DNA of 64,000 nucleotides from the human T2T-CHM13v2.0 reference genome, Homo sapiens. The position numbers and the translations under genes were made by a program. The notes beneath the pieces were generated by a model, which had not been told where the DNA came from, searched no databases, and saw only the letters and a program-made list of their open reading frames with translations. The stretch lies in NCBI RefSeq assembly GCF_009914755.1, contig NC_060934.1; one strand, 5' to 3'. This document shows positions 47,453-53,215 of the stretch, piece after piece (position 1 is the stretch's first letter; each line of letters starts with the position of its first letter).

Positions 47453-48180
<728 letters not shown>

Positions 48181-48999
48181 ACTCCTCTGTTAGTTTCTTA
48201 CACACACTTTCCAAGTTTCCTCAAGCAGCTCCAGAAGAGTACAACAGCGTAAGTGGACACGTTTCTTCCCAAACAGCACATTTGTCCTGGGTTGGGCATT
48301 TCTTTTTTTCACTGAAAAATATACCCACATCTGCACACAGAGAGCTCCCCAATCCTTTTAAACCATTCCATGATGTCTTATATGGGTTCTCAGGGAAGCA
48401 AAGTTGGAGACAAGACTGGATGCCCAGGCTGTATCTGGGAGGAATCTGAGAGAAGGGCAGGAAGGGGTAAGTCACTAAAACTCCGCAGTATGAGCCAATT
48501 GCCAGCATAGACCCTAGAAAGCAGCCCCAGGTGTCCCGCTGCAAACCCAGCAGCACGAACCTCAGCTATGGCCCCAAAGGGCAGGAGCTGGACCCTGTTT
48601 CCCAGAGTCCTGTTCCCTCTTGATGGAAGGCTATCCTTCAGAAAGGGGATACGTGTCCCCCACCTCTCCATGTGCCTGTGCCTGGGCGGAGCTGCCTTCC
48701 AAGGTTCAGGAGAAAGCCCCAGCAGGTGCTTGTGCTGGGAGCCTCCAGCCTCCTCCAACCCCTCCAGCACAGCACAGCCAGCCAGACAGAAGCACAGGGA
48801 GGCAGCAGTACCTGCTGGACCCCAGGGCCTCTGCTGCACAGGCTGGGCCACCGGGCTTGCCAGGGGCTGACTATACAGACCCCTGCTGATGGCATTCGGT
48901 TATTTCTAATAGAATCCAGCAATATGCAATCCTGTACATCTGCCGTTTAATGTGTGTTAATTTGTATTTCTCTGAGAAACAGAACCAAAATAATGCACA

Positions 49000-49137
49000 T
49001 GAATAGATAGAGGATAGATAGATGACAGGTAGAGAGATGTAGATGATAGATGGTGGATGATCGGTAGATAGACAGATGACAGGTGGATAGATGACAGGAA
49101 GATAGAAAGCTAAATGATAGACCGATAGTAGATAGAG

Positions 49138-49181
<44 letters not shown>

Positions 49182-49870
49182 ATTGATGGATAATCAAAGG
49201 ATGATAGAGATAGATGGCAGGTGTATAGATGATAGGTAGATAGAAAGCTAAATAATAGCGAGTAGATAGACGATAGATGGATAGACAGATAGATATATGT
49301 TTGATGGATGATAGAGATAGATGACAGGTGGATAGATGATAGGTAGATAGAAAGCTAAATGATAGGTAGTAGATAGATGATAGATAGATAGATAGAAGGA
49401 TAGAAAATAGATGGATAATCAATGGATGATAGAGACAGATAGCAGGCGGATAGACGATAGGTAGATAGAAAGGTAAGTAATATACAGGTAGTAGAGAGAT
49501 AGATGATAGATAGATAGATAGATAATTGATGGATGATAGAGATGGATGACAGGAGGGTAGATGATAGGTAGATAGAAAGCTAAATGATACACAGGTGGTA
49601 GATAGGTAGATGACAGATGGATAGATACATAATCATTGGATGACAGAGATGGATGGCGGGTGGATAGATGGTAGGTAGATAGAAAGCTAAATGGTAGACA
49701 GGTAGTAGATAGATAGATAGATAGATAGACAGATAGATAGATAGATGATGGATAATCAATGGATGATAGGGTGGGTGACAGGTGGATAGATGGTGGGTAG
49801 ATAGAAAGCTAAGTAATAGACAGGTAGTAGATAGGTAGATGATAGGTAGATAGATAGGTGACAGAGATGA
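49000..49870. repeat. Complex (GATA)n/(GATG)n array with higher-order blocks
   Basis: GATAGAAAG(C/G)TAA anchors at about 49101, 49239, 49346, 49464, 49571, 49678, 49800, separated by variable GATA runs. Confidence 0.95.
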
Positions 49871-50101
49871 CAAGGAATTGGCTCATGTGATTGTGGAACC
49901 TGGGGAGTTGGCAATATCCAGCTTGGGCTGCAGGGGAGCCTGGGCTGCGGTGTCCTCTGAGTGCCTTCTGCTGGGGAAGTTTTCTTGCTCCGGGGATGTC
50001 AGTCTTCGTTCTATTCAAGATTTTAACTGATAGGATGAGGCCCACCCCCATTAGTGGAGCAATCTGCTGACTCAGCGTTCACTGATTTAAACGTTCATCT
50101 C

Positions 50102-50187
50102 GGGTTGGCTTCAGCAGCATATGCAGTAAGGTCAAAAGAACACAAAGAACATTAACATGGCCCCTGCACAAGGACGACACGCAAATT
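50102..50187 (+). pseudogene. RNU6: U6 snRNA pseudogene, nt 1-86 (5' moiety of chimeric retrocopy)
   Basis: Ungapped alignment to U6 (GTGCTCGCTTCGGCAGCA...ATTAGCATGGCCCCTGCGCAAGGATGACACGCAAATT), about 65/86 identities by hand, starting exactly at U6 +1. Confidence 0.9.
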
Positions 50188-50491
50188 TGCCATGAGCCTG
50201 TATCTCTCCATCACACACAGGGGAGGATTGCACGTAGGAGCTCTTTGACTTCCTGGATGCAAGGGACGATTGTGCGGCCCCAAAGCTCTTTAACAACTTG
50301 AAATAAAATGTTCAGACGTACTCACCCCAGCCTTCATCGCTTGGGCATGAGGATATCCTCTTACAGCTTTGAATATGGCATTTGATTCTTATTTGTATGA
50401 ACCTCATTGATTTTGGCTTTGGCTAGTAGCTTCTATGTAATTAGTAGTGATCTGCAAAAATAAAATAAAATAAATAAATAAATAAATAAAT
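50188..50491 (+). pseudogene. UQCRH: Processed pseudogene fragment of UQCRH (complex III hinge protein): 3' CDS, 3' UTR and poly(A)
   Basis: Translation [32 protein letters not shown] matches the UQCRH C-terminus ([33 protein letters not shown]). Premature TAG at 50235-50237, native TAA at 50304-50306, A-rich tail at 50456-50491. Confidence 0.9.
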
Positions 50492-51349
50492 AAATGCTAA
50501 TCCCATTCAAAAATAGCCTTCAAGTTGACGCCTAAAAAGAACTGTCACAGTGCAGGTGCAAGAATTTCTACATGATAAATTCCCTTAAATGGGAATTACT
50601 ACATCATGCTTTTTCTCCTGTCTGCTTCTCTTATTTCATTAAATAATGATAATACTGGAAATGTCTGTTTTGTCTATGATTTTAGAAGAAATGTTTTAAA
50701 TTTTAATTCATAAAGCTTGATGATATTATTTGGGGGCAAAACAAATGTATTTAATTCCATTTCTATTATATCCACAGCCTTCTATGTTGAGCACTTTCTC
50801 TAAGTATAGTCATGAATTGTTATTAATTGCATGATAAGCATCATGCTGTATTTCTTCTTAGTTCTATTAATATGAGGAATGTATTAACATCACATTATCT
50901 TTCCACTGCTGGACTAAATCTCACATGGTTGTGATGTATTGTTACTTTAATGCTGGGTCCTGTTTGCTCATATTTTATATAGGATTTAAGTAGTGATATT
51001 TATTATTAAAATCATTATAATTTTACATTATTGTACAGTATTTGTTGTGTTTCGTGTGATTGCATTGTTACTGCATGAGAATAATTATTTTCAGAATAAG
51101 AAATACGTGAACTAACTCATCTTAAAAAATCTCTCTTTACCTCTTCTCCCAATTTTTGTTGCCTAATTGCACCGCTGGAAAATACAATGAAATGGTCGTA
51201 ATTCCACTCATTTTCTCCTTTGCTTTTGTTTGAGGCTGACCTTAGGCCTATTTAGTGCTCATTGGCAGTATTTTATTTTCTTAAAAACTCCTGTCCTCAC
51301 TTGGTGGTTTCAGTTCTTTCTCTAGCAATTTTCTCAAAAAGGCTTGTGT

Positions 51350-51645
51350 GAGCAATGCTCGATAGTCCTGGGAGCAACGTTCGGTACTCCTGGGAGCAAA
51401 CTTTGGTATTCCTGGGAGCAATATTCGGTATTCCTGGGAGCAACGTTCGGTATTCCTGGGAGCAACGTTCCGTATTCCTGGGAGCAATGCTCGGTATTCC
51501 TGGGAGCAACGTTTTGTATTCTTGTTTGCAACGCTTGTTATTCCTATGAGCAAAGTTCGGTATCCCTGCGAGCAAAGTTCGGTATTCCTACGAGCAATGT
51601 TTGGTATTCCCGAGCAATGCTTGGTATTCCTGAGAACAATGTTCA
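51350..51645. repeat. 22-bp CpG-containing minisatellite, ~13 copies
   Basis: GAGCAACGTTCGGTATTCCTGG-type unit at 51350, 51372, 51394, 51416 and onward. Confidence 0.96.
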
Positions 51646-52505
51646 ATTTCCTGTTTGATGATCACTCTATGGGCGTAGCCTTTAGAGCTGAAAGGTACTT
51701 ACCTGTGTATGAGATCCTCACTGCAACCTCTTTTCCACAAGCACCTGTGCAGTTGTCATCAAAGGTGGTTGTCAACACTTGACGAAAGATGTATTTTCCC
51801 TCCCTCAAATTCTATGTGAGCTTTTTGTCTGCTCCTCAAAAGTCTTTTTCTTAATTGTCACATAGTTTTTCTACTTTGTACATCCATAAGCTCAATGGTC
51901 ATATTTATTTTGCTCAGTTCTCAGTAGACCACGGTGTGCTCTTTCAGGAAGCAGATTTAAGCCTTCTATCTTAAGAATATATTTTGAATTTTACATTAAA
52001 TCGTTATTCTGTTTCCCTGCACTGGTTGTCTTTTTGAATAACTTAAATTAGTTGTCCATTGCACCAGCTTGCTTTCTTGTATATCTGTTGTCTGGGATCC
52101 CTACTGTTTGGGTCCATCCACCGTTCCCATCCCAGCCCCCAGGACTTACTGTGAGGCTGAGGTTGGTAGTGGTGGTGACGGTTCACCCCCTCCCTGAGCT
52201 TCTCAGGTCCAGCCTTCATTCCTGAAATGATGTTGCCTTTATCCACACTTTTTCTAAGACCATCAGCCCTTATTTCACCTTTCCACATTGTGCAGACATC
52301 AAATCCTGTTGTCAAACTGTCCTTTCTTAGATCTTACATTTCTACATTGTGCTGTATTTGTCTGACTTTTACTGTGTTATAATAACGTTTTTCTCAATTC
52401 ACGTTGGAGTGTTGGATTGTAATTTTATTTTCTCTGTGGATTTTTTTTGCATGTTTCTAATATATAAAGGAGCATTACTCCTCTTTCTTACAGAATGTCC
52501 TAACC

Positions 52506-52721
52506 CAGACGTGTCCAATCTTTTGGCTTCCCTAGGCTGCACCAGAAGAAGAAGAATCGTCTTGGGCCACACATAAAATATATTAACACCAACAATAGCT
52601 GATGAGCTAATAAAAAATCACAGTAAAATCTCATAATGTTTTCAGAAAGTTTATGAATTTGTGTTGGGCCACATTTAAAGTCGTCCTGGGCTGCATGTGG
52701 CCTGCAGATTGAACAAGCCTG
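52506..52721 (+). mobile_element. MER30 (hAT-Charlie non-autonomous DNA transposon)
   Basis: CAGACGTGTCCAATCTTTTGGCTTCCCT...GAAGAAGAATCGTCTTGGGCCACACATAAAATA...TTGAACAAGCCTG; 8-bp TSD-like TCCTAACC/TCCTAGAC. Confidence 0.9.
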
Positions 52722-53215
52722 TCCTAGACCACGTTTGTAGAAGTTACGTTTATTTATTTTTAAAATTCACACATAAATAAGTTTCATTTTCCTAAACTTG
52801 CTCTGAGAAGCACAGTCATGGAGAGACAGTGATGGAAAGAACTTCCAGATTTCTCAGCTCATCAGCTTCCTTAGATATTTACTCCTGTTGCAAAAACTCA
52901 TTTATGTAACCGGGGGCTTCTCTGTCCGGGGGCTTCTGTTTCCAGAGACACTGTTTCTCGTAGCCACACCCGATTCATGAGGGTTTCTGCATCCGGCCCT
53001 AGTATCTCCTCCAAGGTGGCTGCTGCCCTCCAGTCATGTTCTGGAGAGAAGGTTGCTGTGCCTGAGGGTCTCCCTCTAGCCTCCTTGATTCTGGAAATAT
53101 CCATTCTCTAATCAGCCTCCTTTCTCTAATCAGCATATCCGCAGTGTACCACAATACCCAGCAGTTCCTCCAGGAAGTGGGATCCTTGCCTCTGGGAATG
53201 AACACTTCCTGATGC

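What the first reader, a model, noticed from the sequence alone, without database searches (positions are those of the whole stretch)
50089..50504. Chimeric U6 snRNA-UQCRH mRNA retrocopy inserted as one unit into an MLT2 LTR
Seen in sequence: U6 nt 1-86 (50102-50187) is joined with no spacer to the C-terminal CDS, 3' UTR and A-tail of UQCRH (50188-50491). A single pair of diverged 13-bp direct repeats (AAACGTTCATCTC at 50089-50101 and AAATGCTAATCCC at 50492-50504) brackets both parts at a TT/AAA L1-endonuclease-type site. Removing the insert restores a continuous MLT2 LTR. Established knowledge: L1 machinery makes U6/L1 chimeras and, more rarely, U6/mRNA chimeras. Inference: this is a single integration of two different cellular RNAs. 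Automated annotation would probably label only the U6 part and miss the UQCRH partner, which is absent from the supplied ORF track.
Basis: partly seen in the sequence, partly recalled or inferred. Interest (0 to 1): 0.85.

Follow-up and report, generated by a model that had tools for sequence, protein, structure and literature searches.

The report
U6–UQCRH chimeric retrocopy, truncated U6
An ancient, dead DNA copy of two unrelated cell RNAs, U6 spliceosomal RNA and the tail of the UQCRH messenger RNA, was pasted into human chromosome 10 as one piece; this kind of insert is known, but here the U6 part stops unusually short.

Summary
Window 50102-50187 is U6 snRNA nt 1-86 (Rfam U6 48.5 bits; ungapped alignment to the genome's canonical U6). 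It runs with no spacer into UQCRH: exon 3 from about nt 76-81, exon 4, stop codon and 3' UTR, with the roughly 6-kb intron absent, then an (AAAT)n tail.

One 13-bp target-site duplication at a TTT/AAA site brackets the whole unit. In 24 of 29 other copies of the host repeat, both flanks map onto the same 13 bases and the repeat runs uninterrupted. Neither half has its own flanking repeat.

This is a single L1-type integration of a U6/mRNA chimera, a class described in print since 2003. This locus did not turn up in three literature searches.

The unusual detail is that U6 lacks its last 16-21 nt, including the U-tract. The joint lies in a 4-nt stretch (GTGA) shared by both parent RNAs. That favours a reverse-transcriptase template switch into the interior of U6 over ligation at the U6 3' end.

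I could not test the host repeat's name (MLT2) or the empty site in other species. Interest is modest.

The parts
49866..50101 (+). Left arm of the host interspersed (LTR-like) repeat, including the 5' copy of the duplicated target
   Evidence: 365 candidate copies in the genome, of which 40 were scored at 71-84% identity. The family name MLT2 was not testable.
50089..50101 (+). 5' target-site duplication (AAACGTTCATCTC), preceded by TTT
   Evidence: It maps to the same 13 bases of other copies of the repeat as 50492-50504 does.
50102..50187 (+). U6 snRNA nt 1-86, sense orientation, 65 of 86 identical to canonical U6
   Evidence: Rfam RF00026 at 48.5 bits; ungapped alignment to L040:1501-1607; mismatch counts.
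50188..50192 (+). Joint zone. It could derive from U6 nt 87-91 or from UQCRH exon 3 nt 76-80. Both parents read GTGA at the last four positions; the window now reads GCCA there.
50193..50273 (+). UQCRH exon 3 nt 81-162. It carries a 1-nt deletion between 50203 and 50204 and an in-frame TAG at 50235-50237.
   Evidence: 71 of 82 identical to the parent exon in L007. Translations; Pfam and PDB hits.
50274..50457 (+). UQCRH exon 4, joined directly to exon 3 with the intron absent: last coding codons, stop codon at 50304-50306, then 3' UTR to the mRNA 3' end
   Evidence: Alignment to L005 from position 1499: 154 matches, 35 mismatches and 22 gap columns. The alignment of the 3' end is ambiguous.
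50458..50491 (+). A-rich tail, now an (AAAT)n microsatellite
   Evidence: TRF reports period 4, 9 copies, at 50458-50495.
50492..50504 (+). 3' target-site duplication (AAATGCTAATCCC)
50505..50550 (+). Right arm of the host repeat. Homology to other copies ends near 50550.
   Evidence: The longest right-flank alignments reach query bases 59-69 of 50492-50560.

Best explanation
This is one LINE-1-type target-primed reverse transcription event in an early placental-mammal ancestor. It nicked an older LTR-like repeat at TTT/AAA. It primed on the poly(A) tail of a spliced UQCRH mRNA and copied it back to about nt 77-80 of exon 3. The growing cDNA end, complementary to GUGA, then annealed to the identical GUGA at U6 snRNA nt 88-91. 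The enzyme copied U6 to its first nucleotide, and the product was sealed with a 13-bp target-site duplication.

The result is a dead bipartite retrocopy: U6 nt 1 to about 86-91, then UQCRH exon 3 (from about nt 76-81) and exon 4 with its 3' UTR, then the A tail.

Shown: the two identities, the missing intron, the direct fusion, the single duplication, the target-site motif, the truncated U6 and the shared GTGA.

Inferred: that the enzyme was L1, that the joint arose by template switching rather than by RNA ligation or later deletion, and the age.

I put about 0.85 on 'a single-event U6/UQCRH chimera'. The 0.6 below is for the whole statement, including the template-switch step.
For: Identities:
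- U6.
- UQCRH.
- Parent exons 6.2 kb apart on C1 but adjacent in the window.

Single unit:
- In 24 of 29 copies of the host repeat, both flanks fall on the same 13 bases.
- At the four positions where the two TSD copies differ, the 24 copies tallied side with the left copy at positions 6 and 12 (22 and 21 of 24) and with the right copy at positions 4 and 8 (19 and 18 of 24). So each copy has drifted from a shared original.
- No direct repeat brackets U6 alone or UQCRH alone.
- There is no A-run or spacer between the halves.
- U6 starts at nt 1 directly after the TSD.

Same age is not rejected: 21 of 86 mismatches in U6 against 46 of 271 in UQCRH, Fisher p = 0.15.

Template switch:
- Both parents read GTGA at the joint. 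In UQCRH, the parent gene and 3 of 4 other retrocopies keep it.
- The chance of at least 4 nt of microhomology at a random joint is 0.016.
- The U-tract that the ligation route uses is absent.
- A tailless U6 pseudogene elsewhere (L084) is truncated in the same U6 segment, with its TSD overlapping it. So this segment can anneal to a DNA 3' end and start reverse transcription (model in PMC4476161 section 8).

Uniqueness: 0 of 5 other UQCRH retrocopy loci carry U6, and no second copy of the joint was found.
Against: - The four microhomology bases now read GCCA in the window, so GTGA on both sides is inferred from the present-day parents, not read at the site.
- A 4-nt overlap arises by chance about 1.6% of the time. 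That is suggestive, not proof.
- The TSD copies share only 9 of 13 bases, and the repeat finder did not report them on its own.
- Divergence is uneven. U6 nt 1-54 has 19 of 54 mismatches, U6 nt 55-86 has 2 of 32 (post hoc p = 0.0035), and exon 3 has 11 of 82. U6 against exon 3 alone gives p = 0.08.
- No orthologous empty site or other mammal could be examined, so co-arrival of the halves rests on structure alone.
- Doucet et al. [quoted passage not shown] This reading therefore asks for a rare event.
- A later deletion could mimic it.
Confidence: 0.6

Rival explanations
1. The two RNAs were joined before reverse transcription. A cleaved U6 fragment ending near nt 86-91 was ligated, RtcB-style, to a 5'-OH fragment of UQCRH mRNA. 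L1 proteins then retrotransposed the chimeric RNA in trans.
For: Moldovan et al. 2019 (PMC6789731; passages read) show that RtcB joins U6 to L1 and to GFP RNA. They note that 3'-truncated small RNAs could be ligated if an endoribonuclease leaves a 2',3'-cyclic phosphate. The structure here (one TSD, direct fusion) fits equally well.
Against: The documented ligation products end in the natural U6 U-tract of 4-6 T, which is missing here. Ligation does not predict a 4-nt overlap between the parents (chance 0.016). It also needs two extra cleavages.
Confidence: 0.15
2. A canonical chimera (full-length U6 with its U-tract, joined to a somewhat longer UQCRH fragment) was integrated. It later lost at least 16-21 bp by a deletion between the two GTGA repeats.
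For: Microhomology-flanked deletions are common in old neutral DNA. The same insert has at least two other indels relative to the parent: a 16-nt gap in the 3' UTR and a 1-nt gap in exon 3, and perhaps a 26-nt gap between two short repeats near the 3' end. Full-length U6 is the rule in chimeras (92 of 97 sampled U6 copies reach nt 102 or beyond; PMC11838501 discussion).
Against: It needs an extra event placed exactly at the joint. Nothing in the sequence requires it.
Confidence: 0.12
3. Two independent insertions occurred. A 5'-truncated UQCRH processed pseudogene and a 3'-truncated 'tailless' U6 pseudogene landed next to each other.
For: Tailless U6 pseudogenes truncated in this same U6 segment exist (L084; PMC4476161 section 8). 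U6 and exon 3 differ somewhat in divergence (p = 0.08).
Against: The later insertion would need its own TSD, and none is found around either half. U6 nt 1 abuts the outer TSD and the U6 end abuts UQCRH with no intervening base. The second event would therefore have to land to the nucleotide at the boundary and leave no duplication.
Confidence: 0.05
4. U6 and/or UQCRH sequence was picked up by the retrovirus-like element itself, through packaging and recombination during retroviral reverse transcription, and is part of the LTR family.
For: Giles et al. 2004, as cited in PMC4476161 section 6, proposed snRNA pseudogenes formed with LTR elements. The insert lies inside an LTR-like repeat.
Against: None of the 29 other copies examined carries the insert, and 24 run straight through the site. 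The insert has an A-rich tail, a 13-bp duplication of repeat sequence and a TTT/AAA site. These are marks of L1, not of retroviral recombination.
Confidence: 0.01

Closest known systems
U6/mRNA ('U/pseudogene') chimeric retrogenes of mammals (Buzdin et al. 2003 class, as described in PMC4476161 section 6 and the PMC2104539 background)
   Same: A sense U6 copy starting at nt 1 is fused directly to a 5'-truncated, spliced, polyadenylated cellular mRNA copy. One TSD pair flanks the unit, at an L1 endonuclease-type target site.
   Different: The U6 part lacks its last 16-21 nt and the U-tract. The joint lies in a 4-nt microhomology. Buzdin 2003 itself was not held, so I could not check whether its list includes this locus or any truncated U6.
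U6/L1 chimeric pseudogenes
   Same: The same 5' partner, orientation, TSD and target site.
   Different: The 3' partner here is an mRNA, not L1. In U6/L1 chimeras the U6 is full length and ends in 4-6 T (PMC6789731; PMC11838501 discussion). Internal switching into U6 'has never been observed' (PMC4476161 section 6). My sample of 97 U6 copies agrees that truncation here is rare: 3 of 97.
U5/L1 and U3/L1 chimeras with a 3'-truncated small RNA (PMC4476161 section 6)
   Same: The small RNA is truncated at its 3' end and joined to the downstream retro-sequence, which those authors read as internal template switching.
   Different: The small RNA there is U5 or U3, not U6, and the partner is L1.
Tailless 3'-truncated U6 pseudogenes (Group III of PMC4476161), for example L084 at G000:C23:130904799-130904820
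   Same: U6 ends in the same segment (about nt 87-92), with sequence overlap at the 3' joint.
   Different: In those, the TSD follows the truncated U6 at once. Here about 300 bp of UQCRH cDNA and an A tail lie between U6 and the TSD.
Ordinary UQCRH processed pseudogenes (L002, L003, L004, L006)
   Same: Intron-less copies of the same mRNA.
   Different: Those four contain essentially all of exon 3 (nt 1-163, 1-163, 2-162 and 6-162), and none of the 5 loci scanned has U6. The window copy starts in mid-exon 3 behind U6.

Membership tests
L1-mediated U6/mRNA bipartite chimeric retrogene | The 5' part is a sense copy of U6 snRNA beginning at nt 1 | tested here: met
   RF00026 at 48.5 bits, above the cut-off of 44. 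U6 nt 1 aligns to 50102, directly after the TSD.
L1-mediated U6/mRNA bipartite chimeric retrogene | The 3' part is a 5'-truncated copy of a processed (spliced, polyadenylated) cellular mRNA | tested here: met
   UCR_hinge and cytochrome b-c1 subunit 6 hits. Exons 3 and 4 are joined with the 6.2-kb intron absent. A-rich tail present.
L1-mediated U6/mRNA bipartite chimeric retrogene | The two parts are fused directly, with no TSD, A-run or spacer between them | tested here: met
   U6 homology runs to 50187-50192 and UQCRH homology starts at 50188-50193. No internal flanking repeats.
L1-mediated U6/mRNA bipartite chimeric retrogene | One pair of 10-20 bp target-site duplications encloses the whole unit | tested here: met
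   A 13-bp duplication, mapped onto single-copy sequence in 24 of 29 other copies of the host repeat.
L1-mediated U6/mRNA bipartite chimeric retrogene | L1 endonuclease-type target (TT/AAAA-like) | tested here: met
   TTT/AAA at 50086-50091. Most of the other copies printed read the same way at the unoccupied site.
L1-mediated U6/mRNA bipartite chimeric retrogene | The U6 part is full length, ending in the U-tract (the usual form, not strictly defining) | tested here: not met
   U6 nt 92-107 against 50193-50208 gives 4 of 16 identical, while UQCRH exon 3 gives 71 of 82 from 50193 on.
L1-mediated U6/mRNA bipartite chimeric retrogene | Both halves arrived together (the same presence/absence pattern across species) | not testable with these tools
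   No other mammalian genome is held. The only proxy is divergence: 21 of 86 against 46 of 271, p = 0.15, which does not reject one age.
Tailless 3'-truncated U6 pseudogene (Group III, PMC4476161) | The TSD follows the truncated U6 directly | tested here: not met
   UQCRH cDNA and the tail (50193-50491) lie between U6 and the 3' TSD.
MLT2 (ERVL) LTR as the host element | A match to the MLT2 consensus in a repeat library | not testable with these tools
   No Dfam, Repbase or RepeatMasker is available. Shown only: an interspersed repeat with 365 candidate copies, continuous across the site in other copies.

The most novel reading that the evidence does not exclude
This locus is a natural, TSD-flanked genomic record of the L1 reverse transcriptase jumping from an mRNA into the interior of U6 snRNA, guided by 4 nt of cDNA-template complementarity.

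One survey says this joint type has never been seen for U6/L1 chimeras. In cell and test-tube work it was set aside as an RT-PCR artefact. The landing segment (U6 nt about 86-92) is also where tailless U6 pseudogenes start. That would make it a general annealing hot spot on U6.

If so, a ligation-independent route to U6 chimeras operates in vivo alongside the RtcB route.
Probability: 0.5. Interest if true: 0.45.

Novelty: new member of a known kind. Interest (0 to 1): 0.35.

Why it matters
U6 chimeras are the main natural evidence for how the L1 machinery combines RNAs. Two mechanisms are debated: template switching during reverse transcription, and RtcB ligation at the U6 3' end. A chimera whose U6 lacks that 3' end, and whose joint carries microhomology, cannot easily come from the ligation route. 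It adds one natural data point for template switching into U6.

On the practical side, the RefSeq entry RNU6-889P overruns into UQCRH sequence by 16-21 nt, and the UQCRH retrocopy next to it is not in the gene table supplied.

Beyond that, the element is a dead, very old insertion with no sign of function.

Tried and rejected
- Separate TSDs: the repeat finder (seed 6, minimum length 9) on 50030-50570 gave four short internal matches. None brackets U6 or UQCRH alone.
- A diverged U6-derived repeat family as the source: the window's U6 part finds only ordinary U6 copies at 77-81% over comparable lengths. None is closer than canonical U6, and none extends past query base 88. Rejected.
- The same chimera elsewhere: 0 of 5 other UQCRH retrocopy loci have a U6 hit at the gathering score.
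- Splicing or trans-splicing at the joint: the joint is in mid-exon 3, and the parent bases before it are not AG (read). Rejected by inspection.
- U6 secondary structure, to ask whether nt 86-92 is single-stranded: the MFE fold is not distinguishable from shuffles (z = -1.57). Uninformative.
- The SNORD75 hit at 50603-50647 scores 19.3 bits against a cut-off of 50. Chance.
- Survey of U6 3' ends: of 97 copies with at most 1 mismatch in nt 65-86, 92 reach nt 102 or beyond by ungapped extension. By eye, 2 more (L099, L135) are full length with an indel. Three stop at nt 92-95. L084 turned out to be a tailless pseudogene. The sample is biased towards young copies.
- Literature: 'RNU6-889P' gave 0 papers. 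'UQCRH' + 'U6 snRNA' + 'chimer' gave 0 papers. 'UQCRHP' gave 14 papers; the 10 listed are unrelated by title. [quoted passage not shown] None of the four terms searched, UQCRH among them, occurs in the 2 searchable supplement files of PMC4476161; one further file could not be searched.
- Buzdin 2003 (PMC169886) and Garcia-Perez 2007 (PMC1855177) are not held. Their locus lists may include this site.
Full report
**What is at 50089-50504**

I read 49500-51100. A covariance-model scan of 48000-53000 against Rfam gave one significant hit: U6 (RF00026) at 50106-50208 on the + strand, 48.5 bits against a gathering score of 44, E 3.1e-10. These are exactly the limits of RefSeq's RNU6-889P in the hub's table.

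The window's own genome is held. Six top-scoring U6 loci there are identical 107-nt copies. A local alignment of that canonical U6 to 50080-50230 is ungapped and pairs U6 nt 1-88 with 50102-50189.

U6 nt 1-86 against 50102-50187 gives 65 of 86 identical. The ungapped continuation, U6 nt 92-107 against 50193-50208, gives 4 of 16. So the Rfam global alignment, and the RefSeq annotation copied from it, overrun true U6 homology by 16-21 nt.

**The second half is UQCRH**

The three forward frames of 50188-50310 show pieces of a recognisable protein tail, broken by a frameshift and a TAG. Read with X at the TAG, 50208-50303 hits two targets:
- Pfam UCR_hinge: E 1.1e-10, 41.9 bits, cut-off 27.2, profile positions 35-65 of 65.
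- PDB chains named 'Cytochrome b-c1 complex subunit 6, mitochondrial': best E 5.5e-12, residues 61-91 of a 91-residue chain, 25 of 31 identical.

A DNA search of the genome with 50188-50460 found 9 places. Two lie on contig 1, about 6.2 kb apart. C1:46187451-46187532 matches query bases 5-85 at 87%. C1:46193771-46193961 matches query bases 89-264 at 74%.

Reading those loci shows an exon bounded by AG and GTAAGT (L007 1422-1583, exon 3 of the parent by my reading), and a last exon starting after an AG at L005 1499. In the window the two exons are joined base to base at 50273|50274, so the template was a spliced mRNA.

The copy runs through the stop codon (50304-50306) and the 3' UTR. Its last bases before the tail can be aligned in two ways. 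One aligns them to the parent's AATAAA. The other, with a 26-nt gap, aligns them as an exact 11-nt match to the stretch 13-23 nt after AATAAA, where a poly(A) site is expected. Either way the copy reaches the mRNA's 3' end.

An (AAAT)9 array follows at 50458-50495. This is the usual decay product of an A tail.

The copy cannot code. It has no start codon, a 1-nt deletion at exon 3 nt 92, and GAG changed to TAG at 50235-50237.

**The joint**

| Window position | U6 reads | UQCRH reads | Window reads |
|---|---|---|---|
| 50187 | T | C | T (diagnostic for U6) |
| 50188 | C | T | T (could be U6 C after CpG decay, or UQCRH T) |
| 50189-50192 | GTGA (nt 88-91) | GTGA (exon 3 nt 77-80) | GCCA |
| 50193 | A | T | T (diagnostic for UQCRH) |

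The GTGA in UQCRH is kept in the parent and in 3 of 4 other well-aligned retrocopies.

The switch point therefore lies within a 4-nt microhomology. The chance of 4 or more such bases at a random joint is 0.016. No spacer, A-run or foreign base lies between the halves.

**One duplication around both halves**

On their own they are weak. The repeat finder did not report them, and the chance of at least 9 of 13 at a fixed placement is 0.001.

The decisive test used other copies of the host repeat. The left flank (49866-50101) has 365 candidate copies in the genome. Forty were scored, and 29 besides the window itself were returned as loci. I aligned the right flank (50492-50560) to each of the 29 around the projected end of the left-flank match.
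- In 20, right-flank base 1 falls exactly 13 bases before the end of the left-flank match.
- In 4 more (L019, L024, L038, L039), the alignment starts a few bases later but at the same offset.
- That makes 24 of 29, and in 23 of those the alignment runs on past the 13 bases.
- The other 5 are L026 (offset by one) and L027, L030, L032, L035 (no match there, or a match elsewhere).

So the last 13 bases of the left flank and the first 13 of the right flank are two copies of one stretch, and the repeat is continuous once the insert is lifted out.

For 24 copies whose left-flank match reaches query base 234 or beyond (5 of the 29 dropped for ending earlier), I tallied the four positions where the two copies differ. 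The other copies side with the left copy at positions 6 and 12 (22 and 21 of 24) and with the right copy at positions 4 and 8 (19 and 18 of 24). Each copy has thus drifted by about two changes, one of them a CpG-to-TpG change.

The unoccupied site reads ...TTT/AAA..., the L1 endonuclease type. No direct repeat brackets U6 alone or UQCRH alone.

**Age**

| Segment | Mismatches |
|---|---|
| U6 nt 1-86 | 21 of 86 (K2P 0.31; non-CpG JC 0.25) |
| Exon 3 | 11 of 82 |
| Exon 4 (ungapped columns) | 35 of 189 |
| All UQCRH | 46 of 271 |

U6 against all UQCRH gives p = 0.15, so one age is not rejected. U6 against exon 3 alone gives p = 0.08.

From general knowledge of neutral divergence in the human lineage, about 20% points to an insertion around or before the placental radiation. 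I could not test this.

Within U6 the changes are uneven: 19 of 54 in nt 1-54 against 2 of 32 in nt 55-86 (post hoc p = 0.0035). I have no explanation for that.

**Comparison with what is known**

Doucet et al. 2015 (PMC4476161; sections 6 and 8 read in full) describe 'U/L1 or U/pseudogene chimeras'. [quoted passage not shown] They credit Buzdin 2003 and Garcia-Perez 2007. Gogvadze et al. 2007 (PMC2104539; passages) summarise the same class.

What is not typical is the truncated U6:
- Moldovan et al. 2019 (PMC6789731; passages) show RtcB ligating the U6 2',3'-cyclic-phosphate end to 5'-OH RNAs. Genuine products end in 4-6 T. They set aside 3'-truncated U6 joined with 1-3 nt of microhomology as RT-PCR artefacts.
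- Law and Burns 2025 (PMC11838501; discussion read) find U6 in U6/L1 chimeras 'predominantly' full length.

My own sample agrees. Of 97 genomic U6 copies with at most 1 mismatch in nt 65-86, 92 reach nt 102 or beyond, 2 more are full length with an indel, and 3 stop at nt 92-95.

One of those three, L084, is a tailless pseudogene. Its 13-14-nt TSD overlaps U6 nt 87-92. So this U6 segment can pair with a DNA 3' end and start reverse transcription, which is what Doucet et al. propose for tailless copies.

**Mechanism**

The simplest account is one L1-type event. It nicked at TTT/AAA and primed on the UQCRH poly(A) tail. It synthesised cDNA back to exon 3 nt about 77-80, re-annealed the cDNA end on U6 GUGA (nt 88-91), copied U6 to nt 1, and closed with a 13-bp duplication.

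I give the single-event chimera about 0.85, and the template-switch version of it about 0.6. The rivals are:
- Prior RNA ligation of two cleaved fragments (0.15).
- A canonical chimera later shortened by a deletion between the two GTGA repeats (0.12).
- Two separate insertions (0.05).
- Capture by the LTR element itself (0.01, contradicted).

**Is it in print?**

Searches for 'RNU6-889P' (0 papers), for 'UQCRH' + 'U6 snRNA' + 'chimer' (0 papers) and for 'UQCRHP' (14 papers, the 10 listed unrelated by title) found nothing on this locus. UQCRH does not occur in the main text of the two U6 census papers, nor in the two searchable supplement files of Doucet 2015 (one file could not be searched).

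Buzdin 2003 and Garcia-Perez 2007 were not available. Doucet et al. excluded highly diverged copies. So the locus may or may not be listed somewhere I could not see.

**Not settled**

- The host repeat's name (MLT2).
- The empty site in other species.
- Whether GENCODE or retrocopy databases list the UQCRH half.

**Verdict**

It is a new, apparently uncatalogued member of a known class, with an atypical 3'-truncated U6 and a microhomology joint that gives it some mechanistic interest. It is an old, dead insertion with no sign of function.

Noticed in passing
window 50106-50208: RefSeq's RNU6-889P limits equal the Rfam global alignment. The last 16-21 nt (50188/50193-50208) are UQCRH exon 3, not U6: 4 of 16 identical to U6 there, while UQCRH exon 3 is 71 of 82 identical from 50193 to 50274.
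   Followed up: yes
window 50102-50187: Divergence from canonical U6 is very uneven: 19 of 54 mismatches in nt 1-54 against 2 of 32 in nt 55-86 (post hoc Fisher p = 0.0035). Seven of the 21 changes are G-to-A. No explanation was tested.
   Followed up: partly
window 49003-49859: A large (ATAG)n-based tandem array with higher-order periods of about 107, 118-122 and 225 bp lies directly upstream of the host repeat and appears to cut off its 5' part.
   Followed up: no
L084 (G000:C23:130903299-130906320), U6 at reverse-strand positions 1437-1528: A tailless U6 pseudogene truncated at about nt 87-92, with a 13-14-nt TSD that overlaps the U6 end. It is the same U6 segment as the joint in the window. 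Rfam scores this copy as a full-length U6 (109.3 bits).
   Followed up: partly
L153 (G000:C22:50512260-50512521) and L108 (G000:C4:187018709-187018970): Two more U6 copies whose homology stops at nt 95 and nt 93. In L153 the 5' 64 nt are also not U6 (28 of 64 identical). What they are joined to was not resolved.
   Followed up: partly
window 50396|50397 and 50443-50457: Relative to the parent 3' UTR, the retrocopy has a 16-nt gap, and possibly a 26-nt gap between two short direct repeats that would remove the AATAAA signal. The alignment of the 3' end is ambiguous.
   Followed up: partly
L075/L076 (G000:C14:26399672-26400896): Two near-canonical U6 copies lie about 1.1 kb apart in opposite orientation. 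Both end in ...TTTTG.
   Followed up: no
L023 (G000:C1:28640365-28643487): In this copy of the host repeat, homology to the window's right flank stops one base after the 13-mer and an Alu-like sequence follows. This may be an independent insertion at almost the same TTT/AAA site of the repeat. The Alu identification is by eye only.
   Followed up: no
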